20,939 bases of DNA from Myxococcales bacterium (lineage in GTDB: Bacteria > Myxococcota_A > UBA9042): positions 1-20,939 of the forward strand of contig JBBISH010000112.1 of assembly GCA_037441385.1 (NCBI GenBank), written 5' to 3'. Positions 6,001-12,000 of the stretch are shown piece by piece (positions within the stretch are counted from its first letter, which is position 1; each line of letters starts with the position of its first letter). The position numbers are program-made.

Positions 6001-9000
6001 ACCTCGGCGTCGCTCAGCCCGTCGAGCCAGGTTGCCAGCTCGGGATGGGTCGCCTGCCAGCCGAGCACAGGTTCCACAAAGGGCTGCGGACGCCATAGAT
6101 ACCCGTACTGCTGCAGCAATTCCGTCAGCGCCGGCAGGCGCTCGCGGAGATTCAATGGCTCGGAGGTGGACACGTTCAGCGCCGGGGCGCCTGCGGCAGC
6201 TTGTCCAACGTCAGCGGGCGGCCGGTGGCCTTTTCAAAGGCGGCCAAGAACTTGGCCAGCGCTGCGGTCAGCTGCGTCCGCGCCGGCGACGGGCCGGGAG
6301 CAAGCACCAGCGCCCCTCGCGCCACGCTCACGCGCAAAACGCCCTCCGGCGAAGCGTGCAGGGACGCGCCGTCCGGCAGCGGCTGCAGGCCCGAGCCCTT
6401 CCGATTGGCCAGCTGCTGGGCCAGCGCCAACAACTGCCGGCCCGCCGCACCCGAGGGCCAGGTCACCGCGTCGTTGTGGTTGAACTCCAGCGGCACGCCG
6501 CCAAAGTACCCCGAGTAGCGCAGCAGGCCATCGCCGTCCAGGGCGTACGACTCGATGAGTTGGTTGGGGTATTTCTTGCCGTCCTGGGGGTGCTCGACCT
6601 CGTACCCCAGCGACAGCACGGTCGTCGCAGGCGTCGCCTTGGGCGTGGCGTGGGCGACCTGAGGCAGCGCGCCGATCGTGACGCTCGCCAGACCAGAAAC
6701 CAGAAGCCGCCGTGGCATGGACTCCCCCTTGCATGGACCCGGCGCCGGCGTCGCCACCCGCAAAAACACGAACGCCGGTGCGACTCTGCAGCCCCACCGG
6801 CGTTCGCCATTTCTGCGGACCCTTGGCTAACGCGCGGGTCCGTCAGGCACGGATCAACCGCGCTCCAGCTTCTCGACGGCCAGCTCGAGCTCTTCGACGT
6901 TGACGTCGGTGCCCTTGCCGTCCAGGGTGAAGCCCTTCCACTTGGTCGGCCAGCCCTCGAAGAAGTTGTAGCGCATGATCTCGCTGCCGTCGTCGGCGCA
7001 GAGGATCACGGAGCCCGACTTGCGCTGCACCTTGCCCTCGACGACGGCCTTGCGCCATTCCCAGAGCTCAGTGTTGTTGATGTAGCCGCGCTTGAAGGTG
7101 ATGTTGCTGTACTTGGTGCGGCCCGGGCGCTTACGCAGCACCATGTCGTCGCCGTCCTGGTACTCGATGATCTCGGTCTCGCTGTCCAGGCCTTCCACGT
7201 TGCGGAAAGCACCCTGGGTGACGCCTTCGATCTCGATCTTGAAGTTGAAGTTACCGATGTGGTCAAACGCACGACGGTTCGGCATCTGCAGTCTCCGGCC
7301 CCCTTCGAGGGCCTAGGCAAGTTGGCCAGGCAGCCCATGCTGCGCAGGCATTCGACGGTATCGCCTGGTCTGCCGCGTAGCGCGTGCCAAACCCCGAGGA
7401 ACGTCTGCACCCTACGCTGCGCGGGCCGGACATGCAAGCGAAATTGGTGGACGTGCGTGCGGCCGGGGTCGCCAGGCTCCAGCCTGCGGCGTGGCTTGCC
7501 CCGGTCGACCCCAGCAAGACCGACGACGACCGACAGGCAGCTGATTTTCCTAGTCGTCCGCCGCCTGGACCACCGTGTTCACCGCCTTCTCGAAGGCGCC
7601 CAGGTCCAGGTTGCCGTTGCCGCTGGGCTGAAAATACATGATCGGCGAGCCGTTCTTGGCAAACCCGTAGCCGCTGTTGCGGATCTCGGAGCCCTTGAAT
7701 TTGCTGGCATGCCCCTCGTTCATCTTGGTCCAGGCATCGACTTGGGCGGTGTCTTGGAGCACCGGGATCGTCTTGACCATCTTGATGAGGTCGGCGGGGT
7801 TCGACGACTGCTTGTCGGCGATGAGCACCATCACCGTGTCGCTGTGGCCGGTGTTGTTGGCCTGATCCTGCAGCTTTTGCATCAATTGGGCCTGCGAGCG
7901 GCACGACGCGCACCAGTCCGAGACCAGCGCCACGACGATCTTCTTGCCTTTGAAAGCCTCGAGGCCATAGCTGGTGTTGTAGAACGGGCTGCCGGGGTTG
8001 ATGTCTTGCAGCTGGAAGGCCGGCAGGTCGTGGAAGGTCTTGACGCACTGCGCCTTTTCGTCGCCGATGCTGGTGATGTCGCCCTTGAAGGCAATCTGCG
8101 CCAGGTCCACGTTGAAGTGGCGGCCCAGGTACTTCATGTTGACGATGCCGCCGAACTGCGGCTGCAGGGTCCGGTTGCGCAGGATCGCTTTGGCCATTCC
8201 GGCTTCGGGCTGACCCAGGGCTTCCAGCGGGAGGCTGCCGGCGGCGCCGACCGACGCGTAGATCACTTCGCTGCTGCTGGGTTCCTTGCTGCTCCAGCCT
8301 GGGCACAGGGCCAATTCGCTGCTGCCGTCGGCCTTGGCGACCTTGGCGCGCGCCCAGAATTTCACACCTTTGAGCTGCAGGCCCTCGCCCTGAAAACCGG
8401 CCTGGTACTCCAGTTCGAGCTTGCAGGTGCCGTCGGGCTGGGCGACCGAGACCGTCAGCGCCGGCACACAGGCCAACCCACCTGGATCCTTGTTGATTTG
8501 GTGCGTCATCGTCGCGACGGCCTTGAGGCCCTTGTACGAAACGGTGACGTCGGTATTGTCGATGCTGGCAGCGAATCCACCGGTGGCGGTCAGGGGCGTA
8601 TCCACGGGCGCGACTTGGGTTACGCCCGCGCTGTCGCACCCCAGCCAGAAGGCGCCCATCGCCAACCCAAGCAACACGGTCCCAACCTTGCCGCGCATCC
8701 AGACCTCCCGCGCAGGCCATACCGGCTTCGGCGACCGCGCTGAGACACGCTAACATGGGCCGCGGACTGGCGAAAGTGCCAGGTGGCGCTCAACGTGCCG
8801 CAGGTGTGGCGAATTCGGGCAAAGCCAGTGCATAATCAAAGGCTTCGGACCCCACGCGCCGCTGCCGCAACCGCCCATCGGCGCCGTAGACGTCGACCAC
8901 CGGCAGCCCGGCCACCGCCGGCAGCAGGCGCAGCATCTGCGCGGCGTCCCAGTCGCTGGCGTCGACCCGCACCACCAGCAACTCGGGGTGTGCTTTGGCG

Positions 9001-12000
9001 AATTCCTCAAGCTGGACCGAGAGCTTCTGGCACGGCGCACACCAGGTAGCCCAGTAATCCACCAGCGCCACCTGTCCCGGCGGCAGCAGGGCGGCGATCT
9101 CGGGCTGGGGCAGGTCGCCGGGCCGGGCGGGCACGGGCTCGGCCTTGGCCGGATCGCCCAGCGGCTGACTCCACGACAGGCCCACAAAGACCCAGTAAGC
9201 GGGCGGGGTTTGCAGCCCCAACACATCCCGCCACAGGGGCTTGCGGCCGGTCAGGTCCAGCGCGATCTGGTCGGTCAGCTGCCCGCGCAGCGAGGCGGTC
9301 AGGTCCACGTATTCGCCGCCCACGCTGGCCGAGTCGACGCGCACGCCCTGCCAATCGAGTTCACTGGGCATTTTGCGCTGCAGCCAGTCGACCGACAGGC
9401 TCGCCTGCAGCCGCTTGGGCCAGAGCTGCCCCGAAAGCCCGCCGCTGACCGCGGTCTCGCGCTCCCAGCGGAACCCGTCGTTGCAGTCGGCCAGCGGCGT
9501 GCGGGTGCGCAGCGCGGCAAACCAGCCCAGCTGCTCGACAAAGCGGCCGTAGAGCTCGGCGTCGGCCAATAGCCACCACGTGCCGCGGCCCAGCGACAGG
9601 GTCTTGTCCAGCTGCTGCCCCGGTTGCAGTTGCGTCACCTGCAGTTTGGAGACGTAGGGCCCGGTCGGCGCCGCCAGGCCCGCCGTCAGCTGCAGGCGCG
9701 GCAGCCAGCGGCCGTCCAGGCCCAGGAGTCGAAAAACGTCTGAACGCGCCCGAAGTTCCAAGTCCCCCAAGCCGTAGTCGTCTGTGTGGCGACTGTCCGA
9801 ATCGCTGCGGATGCGCCCGCTGGGCAGCAGCAGGCTGGCGCCCAGGCCGCTGGCGTGGTCGATCGCGGCGCTCAACGTAACCAGTTGAAGCGAAATCGAA
9901 AAGTGATCATAGCTGGGCAGCGCCCGCTTGCCGCCGTAGGGCTGGTCGCCGTAGGCGTAGGCATAGGTAAGCCCAGCGCGCACGCGGGTTTGTGGGGCGG
10001 CGGCGCTGCCGTCCAAGGCGCGCGCCATGTCGGTGTCTCCCACCGGGAGAGCGGGGTTGCCTCAGGCCGAGCACTGGGCCTGGGCCGGTGCGCTCCAGCC
10101 CGCCAGCACGGTCAGCGCCAGCGCGACAAGGGCAGCCAAATTCCAAGGTTTCATGGGGTGCTCCGCGGGCAGCTGCGCCGACGGGAGTCTGGCATTGCCG
10201 GTCCAGTGCGGCAAGGAGGGCAGGCGTGCGCGTTGGGGGGCAATTTCTACCCCGCAATCCGCAAAGCATTTTGGGCGTCCCGGCCCGGCGCACGCCAGGT
10301 TGGGGGGCATTTTCTAAGAGTAGGGGGCAATTTCTGAACGCCACGCCGGGCCGTCGCGCTGCGGCCGCCGGTCGTCGCAAGTGCCGGCGGCGCACTGGCC
10401 TCGTCCTCCCGGCGGTGGCGACGCGGCACCGCGCCGCCACCCCTTCGGGGCCAGCATCGCTGACGCGGGATGCGTGTTTTCCAGCAATTCCGGAGGGTAG
10501 AAAATGCCCCCCAACCTGCGGCTTAAGGTGCGGTGGACCAAGATGGGCAGAACGGTCTACGACTGGACACCCATGCGCCAAGACAGGCTGTGCAGGCAGC
10601 CGCATGGGGGTGCGCAAAGGGAAGTGTCTGATTCCCGTCAAAAAAACCCAGCCAATGAATTGGCGGGCTATCATTGCGCCGTCGGCCTACGCCGACGTCC
10701 CGGTTCACTTCATCGCGGGTACGTATGAGCGGGGAAGCACTGAATTGTCCGGCACTATCGCGTCCTCGACCTAGCCGTCCTTGGCGAAGGACAGCGTCAT
10801 GGTGGCCCGCTGCTCCAGTGGCTGGGCCACCCTAACCAGCCGACACTCCATAATTTTTTGACCCAATCAGCGCCTATTAAGGGCAAACAACTCCCGGTAG
10901 CTGGGATGCGACTTCTAGGCCAAGCACGCCAACGGTATGGCACGGAACGGCCTACACCGCCGCCGCCAGCTCGCGCAGCGCCTCGACGTCGGCGTAGATC
11001 TCGGCCACCGTCAGCTCCACCTCGGCCCCGGTCAGGCGCAGGGTCTCGCCATCCCCGCAAGCGCGGAAGGTCCAGCTGCCGTCGGCGTTGCGGGCAAAGT
11101 GCTCGACCAGGTTGCGATCTTGGTTGACCAGCAGGTAGTCGCACAGGCTGGGCAGGCGGCGGTACAGCTCGAACTTGCCGCCGCGATCGTACATTTCCGT
11201 TGTGGGCGACAGCACTTCCACCAGCACCGCCGGGTTGATCACGCCGTTGGGGTCGCGCGGGTCGGTCTGGAGCGGCCCGCACACCACACTGGCGTCTGGG
11301 TAGCAGGCGTCGCCCAGCAGAGGGATGACGATGCGCAGCTCGGAGTTGAACGGCCGACAGGGCTTGCCTGCCAGGACCCGGCGCAGGGCGGCATAGGCGT
11401 TGCCGGCCAGGTGGGCGTGGACGATGGATCCCCCCGTCATCGCAAAGATTTCCCCGCTGTGGAACTCCAGCTTGACCGGGCTACGGGCGCAGGCGTCCAG
11501 GTAGTCGGCGTAGGTGGTGGGCAGGGTTTTGCCGGCTTGGGCCATGGGCGCCTCGGCGGGCCGGCGGGGGCCGGTGTAGGTAGGAGTGTAGGGACGGCGG
11601 GGGCTTCCAGCAAGCAGAAGCGAGGCTTGCCCCAAGGCCACGCCTGGCCCATCATCGCCCGGCGCGCGGCCGACCGCGGCGACCGGACCGCCAGGACCGA
11701 GACCATGCAACCCCATACGAATACGCAGACTTTTGCAGGACGGGCCACGCACGTCGCGGAGTTGGGCCACGGCCCGGCGGTGGTGCTGATCCACGGCTCG
11801 GCCGACAAGCCGACCACCTGGCTGCCGGTGATGCAGACACTGGCCGGGCAGTTCCACTTGTTTGCGCCGGGGTTGCCGCCCATCGCCCCCGAAGAGGTGG
11901 CCGCGGGCAAGCTGGCGCTGGACCTGGACCTGCCCTGGCTGGACGACGTGCTGACGTCCACGGGCGCGCGAATTTTGGCGGCGCATTCGTACGGAGCGCT

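What a model noticed while it worked through the whole genome (the two positions that open the first line are those of the whole stretch)
8790..10154. New selenoprotein family: outer-membrane barrel with N-terminal CxxU and C-terminal thioredoxin (copy 1)
The calls g04013 (30 aa) and g04012 (412 aa, 'thioredoxin') are one 454-aa gene read through an in-frame TGA as selenocysteine: signal peptide, then Q-C-S-A-U at the mature N-terminus, a 12-stranded FapF/COG4313-like outer-membrane beta-barrel, and a C-terminal thioredoxin domain (WCAPC). A paralog lies at C21:29169-30638(-) (g01510 plus an uncalled upstream stretch; C-A-T-U). Each copy sits beside a lipoprotein with a thioredoxin-fold domain (g04011, g01511). 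The family, with Sec in a CxxU ahead of a barrel rather than inside the thioredoxin motif, is not among described selenoprotein families; it suggests a thiol/selenol relay at the outer membrane.
Evidence so far: In both copies TGA is in frame and is followed 12 nt later by the hairpin CTCCC-GGT-GGGAG. Database homologs called full-length carry Cys at the U position (AQ-C-x-x-C-GNPAF: P0017,P0018,P0023,P0026,P0073; call 27); most other hits lack the N-terminus (89-91% coverage; call 26), as expected for miscalled Sec genes. Six-frame search of 106 genomes of the class: full-length matches only in the family UBA9042, most with exactly one TGA, a few with none. Of the 30 fetched loci 24 show C-x-x-U-(G/S/T)-(N/S)-P-(A/S)-L-P-x-G-D with the hairpin kept (loop GGT, GGC or GTC), 2 show C-x-x-C with AFS(A/S)GD and no hairpin, 4 did not fit the pattern used. 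AlphaFold2 with 48 sequences: pLDDT 86, barrel 56 [...]
(Added by a program. Inside this text positions count along the whole contig: contig position 1 is position 1 of the stretch shown here. "Call 12" and the like, gene names such as g00115 and contig names such as C1 are that model's own, and its searches are not shown. The text may have been shortened before it was handed on; [...] marks where a part breaks off. The agent that wrote the report below was given it as the finding of a first reader that could run no searches.)

Follow-up and report, generated by a model that had tools for sequence, protein, structure and literature searches.

The report
Outer-membrane barrel–thioredoxin selenoprotein family
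Two gene calls are really one gene for an outer-membrane barrel protein that starts with a cysteine–selenocysteine pair and ends in a thioredoxin domain, a selenoprotein family that current catalogues do not list and that may carry redox chemistry to the outer membrane.

Summary
Window 8790-10154(-) is one 454-codon gene with an in-frame TGA at codon 31 (10064-10062). It encodes a signal peptide, a mature N-terminus Q-C-S-A-U, a 12-stranded COG4313/FapF-like barrel and a C-terminal thioredoxin domain (WCAPC).

Evidence for selenocysteine:
- The genome has selA, selB, selD and tRNA-Sec.
- Of 83 distinct gene copies examined, 63 carry TGA at this position and 20 carry Cys.
- All 63 TGA forms, against 1 of 20 Cys forms, have a hairpin of at least 5 bp starting about 12 nt after the TGA, in 14 sequence variants with compensatory changes.
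- The hairpin codons are frozen (GGA 51/51, against 7% of Gly codons elsewhere), while a neighbouring conserved Pro codon varies freely.
- The genome's own FdhA-like selenoprotein gene has the same hairpin layout.

New here: the family is not confined to one taxonomic family. Distant members carry UxxU or UxU, and one also has WUQRC in the thioredoxin motif. No NCBIfam model and none of the 119 families in a 2026 catalogue matches. Public databases hold only truncated or Cys forms.

Function is inferred: a thiol/selenol relay from the thioredoxin domain to the N-terminal arm. Where that arm sits is unresolved, and Se insertion is unproven.

The parts
8790..10154 (-). Whole gene: 454 codons plus terminal TGA, with an in-frame TGA (Sec) at codon 31
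   Evidence: one open frame under TGA=U. The public call is a 412-aa truncation (P0002).
10077..10154 (-). Signal peptide, residues 1-26 (MKPWNLAALVALALTVLAGWSAPAQA), with an A-x-A cleavage motif before the invariant Q27
   Evidence: A24 and A26 nearly invariant; Q27 and C28 invariant. Cleavage itself is inferred.
10062..10073 (-). C28-S-A-U31 redox motif at residues 2-5 of the predicted mature protein; the Sec codon TGA is 10064-10062
   Evidence: Aligned column: 54 CxxU, 8 UxxU, 1 UxU and 20 CxxC among 83 copies.
10036..10050 (-). SECIS-like hairpin U-CUCCC-GGU-GGGAG-A: 6 bp, 3-nt loop, loop starting 17 nt after UGA
   Evidence: (-7.7 kcal/mol). It meets the bSECIS constraints quoted.
9990..10076 (-). 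N-terminal arm, residues 27-55, ahead of strand 1. Residues from 35 on align with the lumen-inserted N-terminus of COG4313 channel 4rl8.
   Evidence: (model 35..330 = chain 1..268), but pLDDT is below 50 in both models, so the position is unresolved.
9159..9989 (-). 12-stranded outer-membrane beta-barrel, residues 56-332
   Evidence: pLDDT about 90; Foldseek FapF E 3e-14, 4rl8 E 3.7e-13.
8820..9092 (-). Thioredoxin domain, residues 355-445; WCAPC at 9044-9030; invariant cis-Pro-loop proline P418
   Evidence: PF00085 in 27/27 members.
7550..8698 (-). Downstream lipoprotein (382 aa, lipobox LGC, C-terminal redoxin-fold domain with WCASC), 91 nt after the barrel gene. No terminator-like site lies between them.
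   Evidence: NF053656 46.8 bits, below cut-off 100; homolog adjacent in 13 of 31 loci.

Best explanation
The two calls are one selenoprotein gene, in three layers of certainty.

**Shown by comparative sequence evidence.** UGA at codon 31 is decoded as selenocysteine with the help of a SelB-type hairpin that begins 12 nt downstream.

**Shown by prediction.** The product is exported by a signal peptide and matures to Gln-Cys-Ser-Ala-Sec. It folds as a 12-stranded COG4313/FapF-type outer-membrane barrel and carries a classical thioredoxin domain (WCAPC) on its periplasmic C-terminus.

**Inferred.** The N-terminal Cys/Sec pair is a redox centre that cycles between selenol/thiol and selenylsulfide.
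- Both barrel termini face the periplasm, so the fused thioredoxin domain can re-reduce it.
- The thioredoxin domain would itself be fed by a DsbD/CcdA-type pathway, possibly through the neighbouring thioredoxin-fold lipoprotein.
- By analogy with COG4313 channels, whose N-terminus folds into the barrel lumen, the reduced arm would act on a substrate in or at the barrel.

My odds are about 0.9 for the gene reading, about 0.85 for the architecture, and about 0.45 for the thioredoxin-to-arm relay.
For: **Sec machinery in the genome**
- selB 247.6 bits, over its cut-off; selA 438 bits; selD 369 bits; tRNA-SeC at C74:17681-17777.

**Conservation**
- 35 of 37 genomes of the GTDB family hold the gene, mostly with exactly one TGA.
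- The two genomes without it are 61% and 67% complete and also lack a selB match.

**Sec/Cys pairs**
- 63 TGA forms and 20 distinct Cys forms share one column.
- A quick tree of 78 barrels needs at least 4-5 Sec/Cys switches.

**Hairpin**
- At least 5 bp at the fixed place in 63/63 Sec forms against 1/20 Cys forms, in 14 stem/loop variants.
- Compensatory pairs occur: U-A, G-C and C-G at one stem position in the UxxU group; C-G, G-C and A-U at lower-stem positions.

**Codon-level constraint in 51 CxxU genes**
- CTC 51/51 against 21% of Leu codons elsewhere in the same genes.
- CCG 51/51 against 54% of Pro codons.
- GGA 51/51 against 7% of Gly codons.
- The conserved Pro codon in the spacer uses ccc 17, ccg 14, cct 12, cca 5.

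**Internal positive control**
- The genome's FdhA-like gene (..CAATUHDPTV..) has GGUCGCC-GGUCU-GGCGGCC starting 11 nt after its UGA.

**No alternative start**
- Without read-through the barrel protein would have no signal peptide.

**Database signature**
- Of 214 homologs, 24 are full-length CxxC forms, 55 start right after the Sec position, and none carries U.

**Fold**
- pLDDT 81.8 and 88.4.
- 4rl8_C: Z 27.3, rmsd 2.1 over 258 residues. FapF: Z 25.5.

**Thioredoxin domain**
- PF00085 in 27/27 members; W371, C372, C375 and P418 invariant.

**Support for a relay**
- Thioredoxin-fold lipoproteins sit beside both paralogs.
- One relative has Sec in the thioredoxin motif itself, WUQRC, with its own hairpin.
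- The genome has two DsbD_TM genes.
Against: - There is no proteomic or 75Se evidence.
- The hairpin is minimal. Its 3-nt loop and -7.7 kcal/mol sit at the edge of the bSECIS model.
- Single-sequence folding is not unusual in this GC-rich context: z +0.24 for 33 nt and +0.65 for 60 nt, where an alternative fold wins.
- Within the main family the 5-bp core never varies, so covariation comes only from distant members and from the lower stem.
- No Rfam family matches.
- Some Cys forms in databases keep the ...SLPVGD peptide (P0022). The LPxG residues may therefore also matter for the protein and not only for the RNA.
- The first roughly 20 mature residues have pLDDT 43-50 in both models, so neither lumen nor periplasm placement of CxxU is shown.
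- The lipoprotein is adjacent in only 13 of 31 loci.
- Barrel-only members without a thioredoxin domain exist: L113, L115, L117, L118 and the Sec form L120.
- One member has lost the thioredoxin cysteines (L112).
Confidence: 0.75

Rival explanations
1. The TGA is an ordinary stop. A 30-codon ORF happens to lie upstream in frame, and the real protein is the annotated 412-417 aa thioredoxin-family protein starting downstream.
For: This is how gene callers and public databases read it: P0002 and P0003, 412 aa, named 'thioredoxin family protein'. The gene's own terminal stop is also TGA.
Against: - The upstream frame encodes a conserved signal peptide plus an invariant Q-C in 63 of 63 TGA forms.
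- Cys homologs are continuous ORFs.
- The downstream start would leave an outer-membrane barrel without a signal peptide.
- The hairpin and the frozen codons need an explanation.
Confidence: 0.03
2. It is a real selenoprotein, but the terminal Cys/Sec (or Sec/Sec) pair is mainly a soft-metal or chalcogen binding site (Hg, Cu, Cd, Zn, or S/Se species). It captures cargo for a COG4313-type channel, and the thioredoxin domain only keeps the site reduced.
For: - His/Asp/Glu-rich linkers lie between barrel and thioredoxin domain in three UxxU members, L210-L212.
- An Atlas lead points to a cluster with HMA (65% of members) and Phenol_MetA_deg (31%), score 0.83, below the 0.9 line.
- Known selenoprotein families with UxxU or CxxU in metal-binding or mercury-transport proteins appear in Table 1 of PMC13188914.
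- COG4313 channels are uptake channels (PMC4493636).
Against: - The window protein has no His-rich linker.
- No metal-resistance or transport genes are conserved beside it; neighbours vary.
- The fused and neighbouring thioredoxin folds point first to dithiol exchange.
- The Atlas hit is a lead only.
Confidence: 0.2
3. Redox-gated plug: forming or breaking the Cys-Sec bond changes the conformation of the N-terminal segment that occludes the barrel. This opens or closes a channel for hydrophobic substrates, and the thioredoxin domain resets the gate.
For: In Pput2725 the N-terminal ~14 residues occlude the lumen (PMC4493636). Model residues from 35 on align to that segment. The lateral-cluster motif P-T-G-x-Y named in that paper has a counterpart in the invariant P163-T164-G165 with Y167.
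Against: The four-residue CxxU loop lies 7 residues before the aligned plug segment and in a low-confidence region. No transport substrate is indicated by the gene context.
Confidence: 0.1
4. Outer-membrane peroxidase: Sec31 is a peroxidatic selenol and Cys28 the resolving residue, recycled by the fused thioredoxin. It would detoxify peroxides (for instance lipid hydroperoxides) at the outer membrane.
For: CxxU with a dedicated thioredoxin resembles thioredoxin-dependent peroxidase logic. Neighbours in the paralog clade carry AhpC/TSA-type folds. Sec is typical of peroxidases; the GPX and Prx rows of Table 1 show this.
Against: There is no peroxiredoxin or GPX fold around the Sec itself. The motif sits on an unstructured terminus.
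Confidence: 0.1

Closest known systems
COG4313 outer-membrane channels (Pput2725, PDB 4rl8; Pfam PF13557 Phenol_MetA_deg)
   Same: 12-stranded barrel with a segment ahead of strand 1: VIA Z 27.3, rmsd 2.1 over 258 of 268 residues. A P-T-G-x-Y motif like the conserved lateral cluster named in PMC4493636.
   Different: Sequence is below Pfam's threshold: no hit for the window protein, and 2 of 27 members at E >= 0.02. Pput2725 has no Cys/Sec pair at the N-terminus and no C-terminal thioredoxin domain.
FapF amyloid secretion channel (PDB 5o65/5o67)
   Same: Barrel fold: Foldseek E 3e-14, VIA Z 25.5. One relative gives a faint NCBIfam FapF hit of 19.3 bits.
   Different: Far below the FapF cut-off of 700 bits. 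No fap operon genes were seen nearby. FapF has no redox motifs.
Outer-membrane barrel selenoproteins already listed: FCYXU-type TonB-dependent receptor (NF049945, deep-Sep, PMC12013277) and the GSU2204 MtrB/PioB-family barrel (NF041027)
   Same: Predicted selenoproteins that are outer-membrane barrels. The TonB-dependent receptor type has CxxU (Table 1 of PMC13188914).
   Different: Different barrel families (22-stranded TonB-dependent receptor; MtrB/PioB). No NCBIfam match to either model. Neither has a fused thioredoxin domain, and neither is listed with Sec at the mature N-terminus.
DsbD/ScsB-type envelope electron relays, and the C-terminal Gly-Cys-Sec-Gly arm of mammalian thioredoxin reductase (both recalled, not tested)
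   Same: Works like, as proposed: reducing equivalents are handed between thioredoxin-fold and short Cys/Sec centres, with a flexible terminal selenylsulfide arm shuttling between a fixed redox centre and the substrate.
   Different: Not a member. The protein has no DsbD transmembrane domain; that domain occurs elsewhere in the genome. There is no flavoprotein. The membrane is the outer one, and the arm is N-terminal.
Other barrel-thioredoxin fusions seen only as automatic clusters: DUF3187+Thioredoxin (Acidobacteriota), OMP_b-brl_2+Thioredoxin_2 (Bacteroidota)
   Same: Same general architecture, an outer-membrane barrel plus a thioredoxin fold. Atlas feature scores are 0.95 and 0.84 for the Cys homolog P0076.
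   Different: Different barrel families: neither PF11383 nor PF13568 is hit in 27 members. No Sec is known for them. I found no functional study (DUF3187 search).

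Membership tests
Bacterial selenoprotein gene (Sec-UGA decoding) | In-frame UGA conserved among orthologs, with Cys in the same column in homologs | tested here: met
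   63 TGA forms and 20 distinct Cys forms among 83 copies; 24 full-length CxxC database proteins.
Bacterial selenoprotein gene (Sec-UGA decoding) | bSECIS: apical loop 3-9 nt, stem 4-16 bp, G in the first two loop positions, 16-37 nt from UGA to loop, MFE <= -7.5 (PMC13188914, section 5) | tested here: met
   Loop GGU, 6 bp, 17 nt, -7.7 kcal/mol. Present in 63/63 Sec forms. It sits at the lower limits of the model.
Bacterial selenoprotein gene (Sec-UGA decoding) | selA, selB, selD and tRNA-Sec in the genome | tested here: met
   selB was also found in 5 of 5 tested genomes with UxxU forms.
Bacterial selenoprotein gene (Sec-UGA decoding) | Selenium shown in the protein (75Se labelling or mass spectrometry) | not testable with these tools
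   No proteomic data were at hand.
Described selenoprotein families (NCBIfam seleno models; Table 1 of PMC13188914) | Score over the curated cut-off of a family model | tested here: not met
   Window protein plus 10 diverse members: no model over its cut-off. No matching row among the 119 families read.
COG4313 / PF13557 Phenol_MetA_deg | Pfam gathering score | tested here: not met
   No hit at E <= 1 for the window protein; 2 of 27 members, best E 0.02; L081 barrel-only paralog E 0.0027, 18.2 bits against a cut-off of 22.
COG4313 / PF13557 Phenol_MetA_deg | 12-stranded barrel fold | tested here: met
   12 long strands; Z 27.3 to 4rl8_C.
COG4313 / PF13557 Phenol_MetA_deg | N-terminal segment folded into the barrel lumen | tested here: inconclusive
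   Model residues 35-55 align to the chain's N-terminus, but pLDDT is below 50-65 there in both models.
FapF (NF058560) | NCBIfam cut-off of 700 bits | tested here: not met
   Only L078, at 19.3 bits. The fold is similar.
Thioredoxin (PF00085) | Gathering score, CxxC active site, cis-proline loop | tested here: met
   36.2 bits against 23.5; 27/27 members; W371, C372, C375 and P418 invariant.
DsbD-type reductase | DsbD transmembrane domain (PF02683) in the protein | tested here: not met
   No such hit in the protein. Two DsbD_TM genes lie elsewhere in the genome.

The most novel reading that the evidence does not exclude
The protein is a trans-outer-membrane selenol relay, an outer-membrane counterpart of DsbD. 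The N-terminal Cys-Sec (or Sec-Sec) arm threads the barrel lumen, delivers periplasmic reducing power to substrates at the cell surface or in the outer leaflet, and swings back to be recharged by its own periplasmic thioredoxin domain. The UxxU members would then use a natural diselenide for this.
Probability: 0.2. Interest if true: 0.85.

Novelty: new variant of a known kind. Interest (0 to 1): 0.66.

Why it matters
- It adds a well-supported family to the prokaryotic selenoproteome. Gene callers and public databases systematically truncate it: 55 of 214 database homologs start just after the Sec codon, and none carries U.
- It puts Sec in an unusual place, residue 5 of the mature chain of an outer-membrane barrel that carries its own thioredoxin domain.
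- The family offers natural CxxC, CxxU, UxxU and UxU series, and one member with a third Sec in the thioredoxin motif. This is a ready-made comparative system for asking what selenium buys in a dithiol/diselenide centre.
- If the relay reading is right, it would be a route for thiol-type redox chemistry at or across the outer membrane. The searches I ran found no described system of that kind.

Tried and rejected
- **Single-sequence folding energy** as evidence for the hairpin: not informative in this GC-rich DNA (z +0.24 and +0.65; only the isolated 17-mer gives z -2.37).
- **Generic 'best stem' scan**: it picked unrelated GC stems, so I replaced it with a fixed-position test.
- **Rfam scan of 9900-10200:** only chance-level matches.
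- **Profile search of PDB sequences:** only thioredoxin and PDI hits. The barrel is invisible at sequence level.
- **The search for related loci on genome contigs**: swamped by generic thioredoxin hits. Only 5 of 80 loci were full-length relatives, and two of these (L123, L169) duplicated genes I already held. I removed them from the counts.
- **Complex prediction of the barrel protein with the lipoprotein:** Whether the two bind is untested.
- **Atlas look-up with the Sec protein:** not accepted. A natural Cys homolog was used instead, and its hits are leads only.
- **Earlier-findings look-ups:** both returned nothing.
- **A second, deeper AlphaFold run** (59 sequences, mature chain): it raised overall confidence to 88.4 but did not resolve the first 20 residues.
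- **Lower-stem covariation inside the main family:** gcU...A against gcG...(A)CG gives 18+18 concordant against 13 discordant rows. This is suggestive only, because it is confounded by clade.
- **Careful tree:** it did not finish in time, so the quick tree was used. Seven rows were left out as truncated or as second HMM stretches of genes already counted. L126, L208 and L209 did not enter the tree.
- **Literature searches** for a described outer-membrane barrel-thioredoxin fusion or this family found none.

Full report
**What is in the window.**

On the minus strand an ATG at 10154, with GGAG 6 nt upstream, opens a frame that runs to a TGA at 8792-8790. The only interruption is an in-frame TGA at 10064-10062, codon 31. 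Read with TGA=U the product has 454 residues:
- MKPWNLAALVALALTVLAGWSAPAQA, a typical signal peptide ending in A-x-A;
- Q-C-S-A-U-G-N-P-A-L-P-V-G-D;
- a long beta-rich stretch;
- a Pro-rich linker;
- a domain with WCAPC.

Twelve nucleotides after the TGA lies CTCCC-GGT-GGGAG, extended by a U-A pair to 6 bp (10050-10036). The public call for this gene is a 412-aa 'thioredoxin family protein' that starts downstream of the TGA (P0002).

**Does the organism use selenocysteine?**

Yes. The genome (6.6 Mb, 221 contigs, 91% complete) has:
- selB at 247.6 bits, over its cut-off;
- selA at 438 bits;
- selD at 369 bits;
- a tRNA-SeC(tca) at C74:17681-17777.

It also has an FdhA-like gene with the classical ...U-H-x-P... 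context and one in-frame TGA. That gene's UGA is followed after 11 nt by GGUCGCC-GGUCU-GGCGGCC, at -12.2 kcal/mol. This is the same layout as in the finding: a short spacer, a 6-7 bp GC stem and a GGU-containing loop 17-18 nt from the UGA.

**Comparative evidence.**

*Distribution within the taxonomic family.* A six-frame search of the 37 genomes of the same GTDB family found the gene in 35, mostly with exactly one TGA and usually in two paralogous copies. The two genomes without it are 61% and 67% complete and also lack a selB match.

*Census of the N-terminal motif.* I fetched every match whose N-terminus is on the contig, plus relatives from the class and phylum. This gives 83 distinct gene copies:

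| N-terminal motif | Copies |
|---|---|
| CxxU | 54 |
| UxxU | 8 |
| UxU | 1 |
| CxxC | 20 |

Two further rows, L123 and L169, duplicated L101 and L105 and were dropped. L042 and L082 lack the N-terminus. In every TGA form a hydrophobic signal peptide and an (A/G/T)-(Q/T/G) dipeptide (A-Q in most, G-Q, T-Q, A-T or A-G in others) precede the motif in the same frame (mature-N-terminus column nearly invariant).

*Hairpin test.* At the fixed position, a run of at least 5 contiguous pairs is present in 63 of 63 TGA forms (5 bp in 30, 6 bp in 27, 7 bp in 6). Among the 20 Cys forms one has 5 pairs and one has 4. There are 14 stem/loop variants.
- Inside the main family the 5-bp core is invariant.
- In the distant members the stem changes with compensation. 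One position reads U-A (L077, L079, L080), G-C (L078) or C-G (L081, L210, L211). Lower-stem pairs read C-G/G-C (L076), C-G/A-U (L120) or G-C/C-G (L126, L208).

The structure meets the four bSECIS constraints quoted in section 5 of PMC13188914, though at their lower limits.

*Codon-level control.* In 51 CxxU genes the hairpin codons are frozen, while the equally conserved Pro codon in the spacer uses all four synonyms:

| Codon | In the hairpin | Share of that amino acid's codons elsewhere in the same genes |
|---|---|---|
| Leu CTC | 51/51 | 21% |
| Pro CCG | 51/51 | 54% |
| Gly GGA | 51/51 | 7% |
| Spacer Pro | ccc 17, ccg 14, cct 12, cca 5 | n/a |

*Genome-wide specificity.* The exact hairpin occurs only three times in the genome, and two of those are the two paralogs.

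*Tree.* A quick IQ-TREE of 78 barrel segments, with motif and thioredoxin domain excluded, needs at least 4-5 Sec/Cys switches. For example, a CxxC pair nests inside a CxxU clade at 98/92 support. The careful tree was not finished.

The family is not limited to one taxonomic family.
- With a profile, full-length copies appear in other families of the class: G082, G094, G074, G073, G087 and a partial copy in G072.
- They also appear elsewhere in the phylum: G229, G393, G329, G349, G409. In total 36 of 401 sampled genomes match at E <= 1e-25, and 28 of 28 in the home family.
- A Kofleriaceae MAG carries the CTTU form (L126).

Most of these distant copies carry two selenocysteine codons, U-x-x-U or U-x-U, in front of one hairpin. 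This puts the first UGA 26-27 nt from the loop, still inside the 16-37 nt range. G073's copy also has WUQRC in the thioredoxin motif, followed after 11 nt by GCGCCU-CGGGA-AGGCGC. Five of five tested genomes with these forms have selB over its cut-off. SelB is common in the class, in 79 of 107 genomes, so it does not by itself predict the gene.

**Public databases.**

Among 1.84 billion representatives, 111 match the profile at E <= 1e-30. Of 214 database proteins matching my HMM at E <= 1e-20:
- 24 are full-length with CxxC;
- 55 begin right after the Sec position ('MNPALPGG...', 'MNPNLPVGG...', 'VGD...', 'M(A/S)RALDG...');
- 135 are other fragments;
- none carries U.

The names given by sources are 'thioredoxin family protein' from 'Deltaproteobacteria', 'Myxococcales' and 'Kofleriaceae' bacteria.

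**Architecture.**

AlphaFold2 gave pLDDT 81.8 and pTM 0.65 with 27 sequences, and pLDDT 88.4 and pTM 0.75 for the mature chain with 59 sequences. The model has twelve long strands (residues 56-332) and a thioredoxin fold (355-445).

| Structural match | Foldseek | VIA-align |
|---|---|---|
| COG4313 channel 4rl8 | E 3.7e-13, TM 0.81 | Z 27.3, rmsd 2.1, 258 of 268 residues, model 35-330 = chain 1-268 |
| FapF | E 3e-14 | Z 25.5 |

Autotransporter and KdgM barrels follow at Z 17-21.

At sequence level the barrel is not a recognised family:
- PF13557 is absent for the window protein, and hits 2 of 27 members at E >= 0.02.
- One faint FapF NCBIfam hit appears.
- PDB sequence searches see only the thioredoxin domain.

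The P-T-G-x-Y of the conserved lateral cluster described for Pput2725 (passages of PMC4493636) has a counterpart in the invariant P163-T164-G165 with Y167. I did not align these residue by residue.

The thioredoxin domain is classical. PF00085 hits 27/27 members, and W371, C372, C375 and the cis-Pro-loop P418 are invariant.

**Context.**

- The barrel gene is followed after 91 nt, with no terminator-like site between, by a 382-aa lipoprotein with a C-terminal redoxin fold (WCASC). Its best NCBIfam hit is the 'TUGYCR motif thioredoxin fold (seleno)protein' domain, at 46.8 bits and below cut-off.
- Homologs of that lipoprotein lie next to the barrel gene in 13 of 31 loci with flanks. In 10 they are downstream on the same strand, and in 3 they are upstream and divergent.
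- The paralog clade instead has a ~480-aa Cys-rich lipoprotein with a C-terminal AhpC/thioredoxin fold (WCGPC) immediately upstream, in L013, L035 and L043.
- Other neighbours vary.
- The genome has two DsbD_TM genes.

**How it probably works.**

*Shown:* the recoding signal and the domain order.

*Following from established outer-membrane protein topology:* a barrel with an even number of strands has both termini in the periplasm. The thioredoxin domain and the base of the N-terminal arm are therefore on the same side.

*Inferred:* the WCxPC domain, a reducing-type motif, recycles the terminal Cys-Sec selenylsulfide. The arm corresponds to the lumen-inserted N-terminus of COG4313 channels, extended by eight residues that carry the motif, and it acts on a substrate in or at the barrel.

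Where the motif sits is not resolved, because pLDDT is 43-50 for the first 20 mature residues in both models. Rival functions cannot be excluded:
- Soft-metal or chalcogen capture. His-rich linkers occur in three UxxU members, and there is an Atlas lead to HMA plus COG4313 clusters.
- A redox-gated plug.
- A peroxidase.

**Novelty.**

- I read the whole of Table 1 (119 families) of the 2026 review PMC13188914. No row describes this architecture.
- That table does list two other outer-membrane barrel selenoproteins: the FCYXU-type TonB-dependent receptor from deep-Sep (passages of PMC12013277) and the GSU2204 MtrB/PioB barrel.
- NCBIfam release 20 has no model that any of 11 diverse members reaches.
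- Searches for a described barrel-thioredoxin fusion found none.
- PMC9312934 and the bioRxiv preprint 10.1101/2022.07.06.499078 were seen only as search listings with abstract starts.
- No supplementary files were read. Lists of predicted selenoproteins in supplements of those papers could hold this family without my knowing.
- Barrel-plus-thioredoxin fusions of other barrel families exist as unnamed automatic clusters (leads only).

**Not done.**

A complex prediction with the lipoprotein was not run. No RNA or proteome data were examined.

Noticed in passing
L076-L081, L210-L212 (relatives in other families of the class and phylum): Distant members carry two selenocysteine codons (U-x-x-U in 8 copies, U-x-U in 1) at the mature N-terminus ahead of a single hairpin. 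These would be natural diselenide candidates.
   Followed up: partly
L079 (G073:C191), thioredoxin motif: This copy has a third in-frame TGA, giving W-U-Q-R-C in the thioredoxin active site, followed 11 nt later by GCGCCU-CGGGA-AGGCGC. It is a single sequence from a MAG with 5% contamination.
   Followed up: partly
L210, L211, L212, linker between barrel and thioredoxin domain: His/Asp/Glu-rich linkers such as HDHAHHHHDDEAH or EHGDEHADEHADEHDH hint at metal binding in the UxxU group. L210 also has a long C-terminal Ser/Glu/Asp/Thr repeat tail.
   Followed up: no
L113, L115, L117, L118, L081:932-1975, L120: Barrel-only paralogs without a thioredoxin domain exist. Most have CxxC and one (L120) has C-S-D-U. 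In L081 a CxxC barrel-only gene lies directly upstream of the UxU barrel-thioredoxin gene.
   Followed up: partly
L112 (G023:C47): One CxxU member has lost the thioredoxin cysteines (YWARWSALS in place of YWATWCxPC).
   Followed up: no
window 6857-7285 (-): A 143-aa protein matches the T4 gp19 tail-tube family (PF06841, E 1.4e-38) just downstream of the lipoprotein gene. A methyltransferase-domain gene follows at 4956-6230(-).
   Followed up: no
window 2250-3018 (+): An overlapping pair of a nucleotidyltransferase (PF01909) and a HepT-like RNase (PF01934), the usual MNT/HepT toxin-antitoxin arrangement.
   Followed up: no
window 17905-20937 (+), runs off the window end: A protein of more than 1000 aa with Dictyostelium-type Cys-rich CTDC repeats (PF00526, 6 stretches). 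The ORF at 13078-15939 combines amidohydrolase and thrombospondin type 3 repeat matches.
   Followed up: no
window 10651-10664 (-) and 10155-10650: The only terminator-like site in 7300-10960 lies upstream of the barrel gene, after the Uma2-family gene (10955-12106, -). This leaves about 500 nt of untranslated DNA before the barrel gene's start.
   Followed up: no
G000:C13:5911-6648 (-) (L213): An FdhA-like molybdopterin oxidoreductase with an in-frame TGA (..CAATUHDPTV..) and its own hairpin. It is probably a second selenoprotein gene of this genome.
   Followed up: partly
L123, L124, L169 (search for related loci records): Contigs that belong to this Myxococcota-like group are titled 'uncultured Enterobacteriaceae bacterium' in their public records, an evident mislabel. 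Two of them are the same contigs as G022:C11 and G015:C1, judged by length and sequence.
   Followed up: partly
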